From NCBI RefSeq assembly GCF_044647545.1, contig NZ_CP172818.1: a stretch of DNA of 64,000 nt. One strand, 5' to 3'. Positions 4,246 to 5,575 of this stretch are shown piece by piece. The DNA is from Escherichia coli (GTDB lineage Bacteria > Pseudomonadota > Gammaproteobacteria > Enterobacterales > Enterobacteriaceae). Position 1 is the stretch's first letter. Each line of letters opens with the position of its first letter. A program made the translations under genes and the position numbers. A model generated the notes under the pieces. It had not been told where the DNA came from. It searched no databases and worked only from the letters and a program-made list of their open reading frames with translations.

Positions 4246-4254
4246 GATTTGCCC

Positions 4255-5160
4255 CTATATTTCCAGACATCTGTTATCACTTAACCCATTACAAGCCCGC
4301 TGCCGCAGATATTCCCGTGGCGAGCGATAACCCAGCGCACTATGCGGATGCCATTCGTTATAATGCTCGAACGCCTCTGCAAGGTTCTTTGCTGCCGTTA
4401 ACCCGTCTGGTTTGGGCATGATACTGATGTAGTCACGCTTTATCGTTTTCACGAAGCTCTCTGCTATTCCGTTACTCTCCGGACTCCGCACCGCCGTGTT
4501 CTTCGGTTCAAGTCCCAACATCCGGGCGAACTGGCGTGTTTCATTAGCCCGGTAGCATGAACCATTATCCGTCAGCCACTCCACTGGAGACGACGGAAGA
4601 TCGTTGCCGAAGCGGCGTTCCACCGCTCCCAGCATGACGTCCTGTACTGTTTCACTGTTGAAGCCGCCGGTAGTGACCGCCCAGTGCAGTGCCTCACGAT
4701 CACAGCAGTCCAGCGCGAACGTGACACGCAGTCTCTCTCCGTTATCACAGCAGAACTCGAACCCGTCAGAGCACCATCGCTGATTGCTTTCTTTCACGGC
4801 CACTCTGCCTGTATGTGCCCGTTTCGATGGCGGTACAGCAGGTTTTCGCTCAAGCAACAGCGCATTCTGGCGCATGATCCGGTAAACACGTTTGGCATTG
4901 ATCGCAGGCATACCATCAAGTTCTGCCTGTCTGCGAAGCAGCGCCCATACCCGACGATAACCATACGTTGGCAGCTCTCCGATAACATGGTGTATACGGA
5001 GAAGCACATCCGTATCATCAGTGTGACGACTGCGGCGGCCATCCATCCAGTCATCGGTTCGTCTGAGAATGACGTGCAACTGCGCACGCGACACCCGGAG
5101 ACAACGGCTGACTAAGCTTACTCCCCATCCCCGGGCAATAAGGGCGCGTGCGCTATCCAC
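4255..5160 (-). CDS. insD: IS2 transposase OrfB (InsD), 301 aa, GTG start in the insC overlap
   Basis: Track [37 protein letters not shown]...SDNRCLEI; C-terminus runs into the right inverted repeat. Confidence 0.9.
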
Positions 5161-5482
5161 TTTTTTGCCCGTCCATATTCAACGGCTTCTTTGAGGAGTT
5201 CATTTTCCATCGTTTTCTTGCCGAGCAGGCGCTGGAGTTCTTTAATCTGCTTCATGGCAGCAGCAAGTTCAGAGGCAGGAACGACCTGTTCTCCGCGGCG
5301 ACAGCAGTAAGACTTCCCCCCTGGATTGCTTGCGCCAGAGAAATAACTGGCTGGCTGCTACACCGTGTTGCCGGGCAACAAGGGAGGCCGTCATTCCCGG
5401 TTCAAAGCTCTGCTGAACAATAGCGCTCTTTTCCTGTGTAGTACGCCGTCTGCGTTTCTCCGGTCCCTAAGACATCAATCAT
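5118..5482 (-). pseudogene. insC: IS2 OrfA (InsC) disrupted by three single-base indels (+1, -1, -1)
   Basis: From the ATG the frame reads MIDVLG then hits a stop after about 28 codons; InsC-like residues [41 protein letters not shown] continue in a second frame and the canonical C-terminus in a third; no intact ORF of 60 aa or more in the track. Confidence 0.65.
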
Positions 5483-5575
5483 CTGTTCTCCAATGACTAA
5501 GTCAAAAACTAGAATATTAAGACTATCACTTATTTAAGTGATATTGGTTGTCTGGAGATTCTGGGGGCTAGTCTA

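What the first reader, a model, noticed from the sequence alone, without database searches (positions are those of the whole stretch)
4246..5575. IS2 copy with intact insD but an indel-riddled insC, inserted in a TonB-dependent receptor gene
Both inverted repeats and the 5-bp target duplication gtggc are present, and InsD (301 aa) and the A6G frameshift site are intact. InsC cannot be translated as one frame: an extra A after MIDVLG and two single-base deletions place its segments in three frames, and the element is 1330 bp rather than 1331. Such a copy could not make OrfA or the OrfAB fusion in cis and would depend on other copies for mobility. The insertion splits the plug domain of the receptor between IRIRG and EASSRVLILIDG.
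Basis: partly seen in the sequence, partly recalled or inferred. Interest (0 to 1): 0.45.

Follow-up and report, generated by a model that had tools for sequence, protein, structure and literature searches.

The report
K-12 IS2 in chimeric assembly
The broken IS2 transposon gene is really in this sequence, but the window is almost certainly a computer-made hybrid: a second E. coli strain's reads or contigs laid over the K-12 reference genome. The "decayed" IS2 copy, and probably the insertion itself, are therefore assembly artefacts rather than biology.

Summary
The sequence-level observation holds with corrections. An IS2 lies on the minus strand at 4244-5575. It is 1332 bp, not 4246-5575 and 1330 bp. 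It has a GTGGC target duplication, intact insD, an intact A6G site, and insC split over three frames.

The interpretation does not hold. This is the well-known K-12 CP4-44 yoeA::IS2 insertion. The 64-kb window has K-12 architecture carrying the alleles of an MS6198-like O1 strain wherever that strain has homologous DNA. K-12-only segments are 100% K-12: the IS2 body, flu-yeeR, and the O16 cluster with K-12's wbbL::IS5 lesion. Switches occur within 2-10 bp of the homology edges. Alleles from three unlinked donor loci sit side by side in K-12 order, and small deletion scars mark K-12-only insertions.

MS6198 has the receptor gene intact with an empty site. The IS2 left 317 bp carries alleles of that strain's truncated IS2 relic, which lies more than 1 Mb away. 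It also carries five indel events found in none of about 23,000 IS2 left ends. Two of the three coding indels fall on K-12/relic polymorphic sites.

A public record, strain HS-01, shows the same template architecture with an even more damaged IS2. Verdict: a reference-guided assembly artefact of low interest.

The parts
4244..5575 (-). IS2 element, 1332 bp, at the position and orientation of K-12's CP4-44 yoeA::IS2
   Evidence: 98.4-98.9% identity to IS2. Same site as K-12 locus L002. Ends and length.
4239..4243 (.). Target-site duplication GTGGC, IRR side
   Evidence: MS6198 has a single GTGGC at its empty site (L010 8938-8942).
5576..5580 (.). Target-site duplication GTGGC, IRL side
4244..4284 (-). 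IRR (41 bp), ending ...AAATCCA-3' in IS orientation; identical to K-12
5534..5575 (-). IRL (42 bp), with two substitutions (5569, 5562) that are the alleles of the MS6198-type IS2 relic
4255..5160 (-). insD / orfB, 301 codons, identical to K-12
   Evidence: NCBIfam NF006918 scores 727.6 bits.
5160..5166 (-). A6G slippery site for the -1 frameshift, intact
   Evidence: Its role is taken from PMC3219604.
5118..5482 (-). insC / orfA region: ATG at 5482-5480 and stop at 5120-5118. It is broken into three frames by +1 at 5464-5467, -1 at 5324/5325 and -1 at 5294/5295.
   Evidence: The conceptually repaired product scores 267 bits on NF006928 'IS2 repressor TnpA'.
5259..5569 (-). Grafted tract. It holds 15 sites with the allele of the truncated IS2 relic of MS6198-like strains (L003 2501-2860), 2 K-12-type sites, and 5 private indel events (5513-14, 5500-03, 5464-67, 5325, 5295).
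   Evidence: The private indels are absent from 23,028 and 19,649 IS2 left ends, from plasmids, from GTDB representatives and from JGI metagenomes.
3938..4243 (+). 5' fragment of the TonB-dependent receptor gene (K-12 yoeA), codons 1-102, ending ...IRIRG
   Evidence: It has 0 mismatches to MS6198 L010.
5581..5774 (+). Continuation of the receptor gene (EASSRVLILIDG...FITKKG). It is truncated at 5775 as in K-12.
   Evidence: 100% to MS6198 L010 8938-9136. The truncation junction is shown.
5775..6526 (+). K-12-ordered segment (IS3-family end remnant plus yeeP pseudogene) carrying alleles of two MS6198 loci 17 kb apart. The source switches at 5963-5965.
   Evidence: 23 donor-type sites and 1 K-12-type site. 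Donor markers reach to within 4-9 bp of the homology edges.
2656..2657 (.). Scar at the K-12 IS5 site. Relative to K-12, 1208 bp are missing (IS5 + CTAG + 9 bp). Relative to MS6198, 9 bp (GACTATGCA) are missing.
   Evidence: HS-01 has a different scar at the same site.

Best explanation
The window comes from a template-guided (K-12-referenced) assembly of a non-K-12 E. coli closely related to strain MS6198, an O1-antigen strain.

What the assembly did:
- Wherever the sequenced strain had DNA alignable to K-12, its alleles were written into the K-12 coordinate frame.
- Wherever it had nothing alignable, the K-12 reference was left in place.
- The IS2 at 4244-5575 is therefore K-12's own CP4-44 yoeA::IS2 copy, retained from the template.

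What the real strain most probably has:
- An intact TonB-dependent receptor gene and no IS2 at this site.
- A truncated IS2 relic of about 355 bp elsewhere in its genome.

How insC came to look broken: reads or a small contig from that relic were laid onto the left end of the template IS2. This overwrote 5259-5569 with relic alleles and, in this repeat context, produced five consensus indel errors. Three of them break insC.

Shown here: the mosaic structure, the donor identity, the empty site, the relic origin of the substitutions, the uniqueness of the indels, the scars, and a public sibling record.

Inferred: the exact software route, and that the indels are consensus errors rather than real mutations of the donor's relic.
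For: 1. Mosaic with K-12. Stretches of zero differences (about 1100-5258, 6527-11604, 36165-44909) alternate with blocks 1.5-10% diverged. The substitutions are natural in type, at codon positions 1/2/3 = 126/84/1093, and all housekeeping genes are intact.

2. Donor identity. Every diverged block matches MS6198: 99.99% over 44910-64000, 99.8% over 24552-36164, 99.1% over 11605-24519, and 0 mismatches over 1-4243. Between 13854 and 24465 there are 234 donor-type sites, 0 K-12-type sites and 2 private sites.

3. The K-12-identical blocks are exactly what MS6198 lacks at this locus. They include the O16 cluster with IS5 in wbbL. I recall this as K-12's rfb-50 lesion.

4. Switch points hug the edges of alignability:
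- donor marker at 6522, homology ends at 6526;
- donor marker at 5784, homology starts at 5775;
- donor marker at 36156, homology ends at 36164;
- the switch in rfbC falls within 44909-44912.

5. Three unlinked MS6198 loci feed adjacent K-12-ordered segments:
- the IS2 relic at 3.38 Mb;
- L008 5309-5499;
- L008 22620-23184.

6. Scars sit at K-12-only features inside donor-type sequence: a 9-bp loss beside the IS5 target and a 1-bp loss at a 198-bp K-12-only segment.

7. MS6198 has the receptor intact (715 aa) with a single GTGGC.

8. In the IS2 left end, 15 of 17 informative sites carry the relic allele. The extra base at 5464-67 gives GGGACC, against K-12 GGG-CC and relic GGA-CC. The deletion at 5295 removes a base that is C in K-12 and A in the relic.

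9. The relic is identical in about 40 MS6198-like genomes. The private indels occur in no other IS2.

10. Strain HS-01 (NZ_CP172817.1), a field isolate, has the same K-12 architecture. Its O16 genes show 0 differences from K-12 and it carries wbbL::IS5. It has a different scar at the same IS5 site. Its yoeA::IS2 is 1286 bp and riddled with indels.

11. PMC9176272 documents that reference-guided assembly wrongly includes template mobile elements, and that such records persist in GenBank.
Against: - No reads and no assembly-method statement could be consulted, so the artefact is inferred, not observed.
- The pipeline removed some K-12-only segments (the IS5 at 2656, yefM-yoeB, a 198-bp repeat) but not the 1.3-kb IS2. 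This needs the ad hoc assumption that relic-derived coverage of the IS2 left end blocked the deletion call.
- Two K-12-type sites (5300, 5359) lie inside the relic-type tract.
- The indels at 5500-5514 and 5325 are not at polymorphic sites, so a simple mixed-pileup model does not explain all five.
- The exact source record was not found in the collections searched.
Confidence: 0.85

Rival explanations
1. A real, decaying IS2 copy. On this reading the organism truly carries IS2 in the receptor gene. Its left end was replaced by ectopic gene conversion from a diverged IS2 relic and then, or thereby, acquired frameshifts. The copy makes no OrfA or OrfAB and could move only with transposase supplied in trans by other IS2 copies acting on its still-recognisable ends.
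For: - The sequence as given has intact ends, a target duplication, intact orfB and an intact A6G site.
- The substitutions in the left end are natural alleles seen in real relics.
- Base-level quality outside repeats is excellent.
- IS pseudogenisation is commonplace.
Against: - The flanks are 100% MS6198-type, and that lineage has an empty site. A real insertion would need an independent hit at K-12's exact site and orientation.
- The IS2 body has 0 differences from K-12 over 1015 bp while the left 317 bp has 5 private indels.
- The same window carries K-12's wbbL::IS5 and other K-12-only blocks, with crossovers within 2-10 bp of the homology edges.
- There are scars at K-12-only insertions.
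- The donor relic is invariant across about 40 genomes.
Confidence: 0.05
2. A real laboratory or natural recombinant between a K-12 strain and an MS6198-like strain. In this reading donor DNA replaced every homologous stretch, while the recipient's K-12-specific insertions (IS2, flu-yeeR, the O16 cluster) were retained.
For: - Mosaic genomes do arise from conjugation or transduction between E. coli strains.
- The mosaic here is clean at the base level.
Against: - It would need at least six crossovers in 45 kb, each within 2-10 bp of a heterology. From established knowledge, RecA-dependent exchange needs tens of bp of identity. In rfbC there is no shared flank at all.
- It cannot explain alleles imported from three unlinked donor loci into K-12 order, with a switch exactly at K-12's internal deletion junction 5963-65.
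- It cannot explain the 9-bp scar at the IS5 site in otherwise donor-type DNA.
- A second record (HS-01) with a different donor shows the same architecture.
Confidence: 0.04
3. Co-assembly of a mixed sample (a K-12 contaminant plus an MS6198-like isolate, or a metagenome). The assembler's path then alternates between the two strains at shared sequence.
For: - This would also yield K-12-only islands embedded in donor-type core sequence.
- It would also yield messy consensus in repeats such as IS2 and the yeeT-cbtA paralogues.
Against: - A graph path would be expected sometimes to take donor-specific branches (the O1 cluster, the donor island). It would not be expected to place donor paralogue alleles into K-12 order at 5775-6526.
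- It would not create deletion scars at K-12 insertion sites.
- It is still an artefact, so the verdict on the finding is unchanged.
Confidence: 0.06

Closest known systems
IS2 (IS3 family, IS2 group), specifically the copy that interrupts yoeA in the CP4-44 cryptic prophage of E. coli K-12. From memory this is gene pair insC-3/insD-3, b1997/b1996.
   Same: - Same insertion site, orientation and GTGGC duplication.
- Positions 4244-5258 are identical base for base.
- Same downstream truncation of yoeA, followed by yeeP, flu and yeeR.
- Same IR structure, A6G site and orfB.
   Different: - 1332 bp instead of 1331 bp.
- 15 substitutions and 5 indel events in 5259-5569.
- orfA is in three frames.
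- The immediate flanks carry MS6198-type alleles at 3904 and 5698.
Truncated IS2 relic of MS6198-like strains (NZ_CP015834.1 3380865-3381222, annotated as a partial 'transposase')
   Same: It shares 15 of 17 informative substitutions with the window's IS2 left end. Its homology to IS2 stops at about IS position 355, just beyond the last relic-type allele in the window (5259).
   Different: The relic has none of the five indel events. It has G at the positions equivalent to 5300 and 5359. It sits in a different genomic context more than 1 Mb from the his-cob region.
Reference-guided 'complete genomes' that inherit template mobile elements. Examples are E. coli HS-01 (NZ_CP172817.1) and the S. 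iniae ISET0901 and ISNO cases described in PMC9176272.
   Same: - K-12-only elements are retained in a non-K-12 isolate: yoeA::IS2, wbbL::IS5, and an O16 cluster with 0 differences.
- There is a scar at the K-12 IS5 site.
- The IS2 is frameshifted.
- The general phenomenon is described.
   Different: - HS-01 has a different donor. It is 97-98% identical to the window, and its indel noise runs across the whole IS2 and elsewhere.
- The window is clean except in repeats.

Membership tests
IS2 (IS3 family) | Imperfect terminal inverted repeats (IRL 42 bp, IRR 41 bp). IRR ends in CA-3' and the IRL outer end is TA. | tested here: met
   31 matched positions, the same as K-12. The ends are TAGACT... 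and ...AAATCCA. Expected end structure is taken from PMC3219604.
IS2 (IS3 family) | 5-bp target-site duplication | tested here: met
   GTGGC lies on both sides, against a single copy at the MS6198 empty site.
IS2 (IS3 family) | orfB encodes a DDE transposase domain of the IS2 type | tested here: met
   NF006918 'IS2 transposase TnpB' scores 727.6 bits (cut-off 597). NF033516 'IS3 family transposase' scores 205 bits (cut-off 160).
IS2 (IS3 family) | Uninterrupted orfA (121 codons; IS2 repressor and N-terminus of OrfAB) | tested here: not met
   orfA is split over three frames by +1, -1 and -1. Only the conceptually repaired product matches NF006928, at 267 bits.
IS2 (IS3 family) | A6G slippery motif in the orfA/orfB overlap for the -1 frameshift | tested here: met
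   AAAAAAG lies at 5166-5160. The motif is described in PMC3219604.
IS2 (IS3 family) | Element length of 1331 bp | tested here: not met
   1332 bp, against 1331 bp for the K-12 copy at the same locus.
K-12 CP4-44 yoeA::IS2 locus (orthologous insertion) | Same site, orientation and target duplication, plus the same downstream K-12 architecture | tested here: met
   The window is collinear with K-12 L002/L007 with no structural difference from 2657 to 24519.
K-12 CP4-44 yoeA::IS2 locus (orthologous insertion) | Flanking sequence of the K-12 lineage | tested here: not met
   The flanks have 0 mismatches to MS6198 over 1-4243 and 5576-5774. K-12 differs at 39 and 1 sites respectively.
Template-guided chimeric assembly | Template-only segments are identical to the template, and all segments with a donor homologue carry donor alleles | tested here: met
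Template-guided chimeric assembly | Switch points coincide with alignment boundaries rather than lying inside shared homology | tested here: met
   Distances are 2-10 bp at 5775, 6526, 36164 and 44910. There is also a switch between two donor loci at 5963-65.
Template-guided chimeric assembly | Scars at template-only insertions, and paralogue or relic alleles written onto template repeats | tested here: met
   A 9-bp scar at 2656/7, a 1-bp scar at 53325, and the IS2 left-end graft.
Template-guided chimeric assembly | Read-level or methods-level confirmation | not testable with these tools
A sibling public record, HS-01, shows the same pattern.
TonB-dependent outer-membrane receptor (the target gene) | N-terminal Plug domain followed by a 22-strand beta-barrel domain | tested here: met
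   The intact MS6198 orthologue has PF07715 Plug at residues 54-159 and PF00593 at 233-688. The window holds only codons 1-102 and about 103-167, because of the IS2 and the K-12-type truncation.

The most novel reading that the evidence does not exclude
The sequence is real, and it records ectopic gene conversion in which a dead, truncated IS2 relic overwrote the left end of a full-length IS2. This would be 'poisoning' of a live element by a fossil. The result would be a non-autonomous copy that keeps its ends, orfB and slippery site, and could be mobilised only in trans.
Probability: 0.04. Interest if true: 0.35.

Novelty: not a real feature. Interest (0 to 1): 0.1.

Why it matters
The biological significance is very small. 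IS2 in yoeA is a textbook K-12 feature, and broken IS copies are common.

The practical value is as a data-quality warning.
- A window that looks like clean, natural E. coli sequence is a K-12-templated chimera.
- At least one similar record, HS-01, sits in RefSeq as a 'complete genome'.
- Such records plant K-12 mobile elements, K-12 lesions (wbbL::IS5) and fabricated pseudogenes into non-K-12 isolates.
- This can mislead studies of IS dynamics, pseudogene decay, O-antigen typing and recombination.

Tried and rejected
1. General sequencing noise. Rejected because substitutions are 84% third-codon-position, all core genes are intact, and private differences outside repeats number about 1 per 7.6 kb.

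2. A natural IS2 sub-lineage with an alternative InsC frame arrangement. Rejected for three reasons:
- The closest natural left ends (MS6198-type relics, 97.2%) have no indels.
- No IS2 left end among about 23,000 places shares any of the indels.
- The frameshift-created 41-aa ORF is not on record, and the indel-spanning 35-mer is absent from GTDB representatives and JGI metagenomes.

3. A plasmid-borne IS2 variant as the source. The best plasmid match is 96.3%.

4. K-12 itself, or an old K-12 sequence version, as the source. Rejected because 1,567 substitutions are distributed in blocks.

5. An attempt to identify the source record through the hybrid RfbC protein. This found two other records (CP092700.1 and HS-01) that are 97.5-97.8% identical to the window, so neither is the source.

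6. The yeeT-cbtA block (12.3-13.7 kb) was tested for a paralogous donor locus. Nothing above 93% exists, so its origin stays unexplained.

Full report
**1. Checking the observation**

The region holds an IS2 element on the minus strand.
- Megablast finds IS2 in 4,877 of 5,426 complete E. coli genomes at 98.4-98.9% identity to this copy.
- Reading the ends directly places the element at 4244-5575.
- The length is 1332 bp. The K-12 copy at the same locus is 1331 bp.
- GTGGC flanks it at 4239-4243 and 5576-5580.
- IRL and IRR align with 31 matched positions, exactly as in K-12.
- insD (4255-5160, 301 codons) and the A6G slippery site (5166-5160) are intact. insD scores 727.6 bits on NCBIfam 'IS2 transposase TnpB'.
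- insC starts at 5482 and is spread over three frames: MIDVLG, then one extra base, then two single-base deletions.

- There are two further indel events upstream of the ATG (+TT at 5513-14, and an A-deletion/T-insertion at 5500-03).
- There are 15 substitutions, all confined to 5259-5569.
- Positions 4244-5258 are identical to K-12 base for base.

**2. The locus is K-12's yoeA::IS2**

The same insertion, at the same site and in the same orientation, occurs in K-12 strains. There the two receptor fragments are annotated as TonB-dependent receptor plug-domain pseudogenes flanking an IS2 with a programmed frameshift. They are followed by the yeeP pseudogene, agn43 and yeeR. The window is collinear with K-12 over all 64 kb.

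**3. The window is not K-12: it is a two-parent mosaic**

- Against K-12 there are 1,567 substitutions and 48 indel positions. They are distributed in blocks. Differences are zero in about 1100-5258 (apart from one substitution at 3904, where the window has the MS6198 base), in 6527-11604 and in 36165-44909. Elsewhere divergence is 1.5-10%.
- The substitutions are natural in kind (1093 at third codon positions, against 126 and 84), and every housekeeping gene is intact. This is therefore not noisy sequence.
- The his operon is 100.0% identical to strain MS6198 and its relatives. These are the same genomes whose truncated IS2 relic gave the best match to the window's IS2 left end.
- Aligning the window to MS6198 shows that every non-K-12 block is MS6198-like:
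  - 99.99% over 44910-64000;
  - 99.8% over 24552-36164;
  - 99.1% over 11605-24519;
  - 0 mismatches over 1-4243;
  - 199/199 over 5576-5774.
- Between 13854 and 24465 there are 234 donor-type sites, no K-12-type sites and 2 private ones.
- The K-12-identical blocks are exactly what MS6198 lacks at this locus: the IS2 body, flu-yeeR, and the O16 O-antigen genes. MS6198 has an O1 cluster there. The O16 block contains the IS5 in wbbL, which I recall as K-12's rfb-50 lesion. PMC5009759 places an IS5 at 2,099,773 and another at 2,064,183 beside CP4-44 in MG1655.

**4. Why this is an in-silico chimera and not recombination**

(a) Switch points sit at the edges of alignability.
- The last donor marker is at 6522 and donor homology ends at 6526.
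- The first donor marker is at 5784 and homology starts at 5775.
- The last donor marker is at 36156 and homology ends at 36164.
- In rfbC the sequence goes from K-12-identical to MS6198-identical between 44909 and 44912, with no shared flank.
- Homologous exchange needs tens of bases of identity (established knowledge). Stitching at alignment ends does not.

(b) Positions 5775-6526 keep K-12's order but carry alleles of two MS6198 loci that lie 17 kb apart. The source switches exactly at K-12's internal junction, 5963-65. The IS2 left end carries alleles of a third locus more than 1 Mb away.

(c) There are scars at K-12-only features.
- At the site where K-12 has an IS5 next to cobU, MS6198 reads GGTGGC-GACTATGCA-CTAG and the window reads GGTGGC-CTAG. 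That equals K-12 minus 1208 bp (IS5 + CTAG + 9 bp) inside otherwise perfect MS6198-type sequence.
- A 1-bp loss sits exactly where K-12 has an extra 198 bp.

(d) There is an independent record of the same kind.
- The hybrid RfbC spanning the 44910 junction is encoded by CP092700.1 and by strain HS-01.
- HS-01 is a farm-worker stool isolate deposited as a complete genome. Its O16 genes show 0 differences from K-12, and it carries wbbL::IS5.
- It has a different scar at the same IS5 site (GGTGGC-GCG-CTAG).
- Its yoeA::IS2 is at the identical site but is 1286 bp long, with dozens of 1-bp indels. It is annotated 'frameshifted'.

(e) PMC9176272 describes this failure mode. Reference-guided assembly includes template mobile elements that are absent from the sequenced strain, and such genomes remain in public repositories.

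**5. What happened to insC**

- MS6198 carries the receptor gene intact (715 aa; Plug at 54-159, barrel at 233-688) with a single GTGGC at the point where the window has the IS2, after G102. The strain that supplies the flanks therefore has an empty site.
- The same lineage has a truncated IS2 relic of about 355 bp, identical in about 40 genomes.
- In the window, 15 of 17 informative sites between 5569 and 5259 have the relic allele. Beyond the relic's end, the window is pure K-12.
- On top of this there are five indel events that neither parent has.
- Two of the three coding indels lie on K-12/relic polymorphic sites:
  - at 5464-67, K-12 has GGG-CC, the relic has GGA-CC and the window has GGGACC;
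  - at 5295, K-12 has C, the relic has A and the window has nothing.
- Five such events in 317 bp, against 6 in 45,550 bp elsewhere, gives P of about 1e-9.
- None of them occurs in any of 23,028 or 19,649 IS2 left ends in complete genomes, in plasmids, in GTDB representative genomes or in JGI metagenomes. The ORF they create is not on record.

The most economical reading is that relic-derived reads or a small contig were merged with the template IS2 and the consensus went wrong in this repeat.

**6. Mechanistic statement taken at face value**

If the sequence were real, the copy could make neither OrfA nor OrfAB. OrfA is the IS2 repressor (NF006928). OrfAB is the transposase, made by a -1 frameshift at A6G (PMC3219604). 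The copy also has altered bases in the IRL outer domain (5569, 5562) and next to the IRL promoter (5500-5514). It would be non-autonomous at best. I give this reading about 5%.

**7. Comparison with known elements, and verdict**

- By its ends, target duplication, orfB and slippery site, the element is IS2 (IS3 family).
- It fails the intact-orfA test and the 1331-bp length test.
- It is orthologous in position to K-12's CP4-44 copy, but it has non-K-12 flanks.
- It meets every testable criterion of a template-guided chimera. The read-level criterion cannot be tested here.
- Novelty: not a real feature. The underlying K-12 insertion is already known.
- Interest is low. The useful by-product is the recognition that K-12-templated assemblies of wild isolates are present in public collections.

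**8. Leads that went nowhere**

- The source record was not identified.
- The origin of the about 100 private differences in the yeeT-cbtA block (12342-13641) is unresolved, because nothing in 14,023 paralogous places exceeds 93% identity.
- 54 bp at 24520-24573 match neither parent.

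Noticed in passing
window 2656-2657: This is a 9-bp deletion (GACTATGCA) relative to MS6198, exactly beside the CTAG target where K-12 carries an IS5. It equals K-12 minus 1208 bp. HS-01 has a different scar (GCG) at the same spot.
   Followed up: yes
window 36612-37809 (within 36165-44909): An IS5 interrupts wbbL inside an O16 O-antigen cluster that is identical to K-12, while gnd and rfbBDA/galF on either side are MS6198-type. MS6198 itself has an O1 cluster here.
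   Followed up: yes
window 5775-5965: An IS3-family left-end-like remnant (TGAATCTCCAGACTCC...) truncates the receptor gene as it does in K-12. It is 69% similar to IS2 positions 15-190. It is 100% identical to MS6198 L008 5309-5499, which lies next to a degenerate transposase pseudogene.
   Followed up: partly
window 12342-13641: The yeeT/cbeA/cbtA/yeeW block has about 100 differences from both K-12 and MS6198, including a 10-A insertion at 13480-13489, and cbtA is broken. It is at most 93.0% identical to any of 14,023 paralogous places in complete E. coli genomes. It may be a collapsed paralogue consensus or a distinct donor allele.
   Followed up: partly
window 53325: This is a single-base deletion relative to MS6198, exactly where K-12 has an extra 198-bp intergenic segment between wcaK and wzxC. 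It is one of only two private differences in 19 kb.
   Followed up: yes
window 24520-24573 and 24699-24718: At the site where K-12 has yefM-yoeB and MS6198 does not, 54 bp match neither parent. A 20-bp insertion (AGTCAAAACCACCTAACGCC) relative to MS6198 follows.
   Followed up: partly
L013 (NZ_CP172817.1, strain HS-01) 5085-6382 and whole locus; also CP092700.1 (L011): These are public 'complete genome' records of non-K-12 isolates with K-12 architecture. HS-01 carries wbbL::IS5, O16 genes identical to K-12, a yoeA::IS2 of 1286 bp with dozens of indels, and a frameshifted agn43. HS-01 therefore looks like a K-12-templated assembly, and it is in RefSeq. L011 covers only the O16/rfb region, where its O16 genes are likewise identical to K-12.
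   Followed up: partly
L010 8637-10784 (MS6198): This is the intact 715-aa orthologue of K-12's yoeA pseudogene (Plug plus beta-barrel), lying next to cobU. It shows what the uninterrupted receptor looks like.
   Followed up: yes
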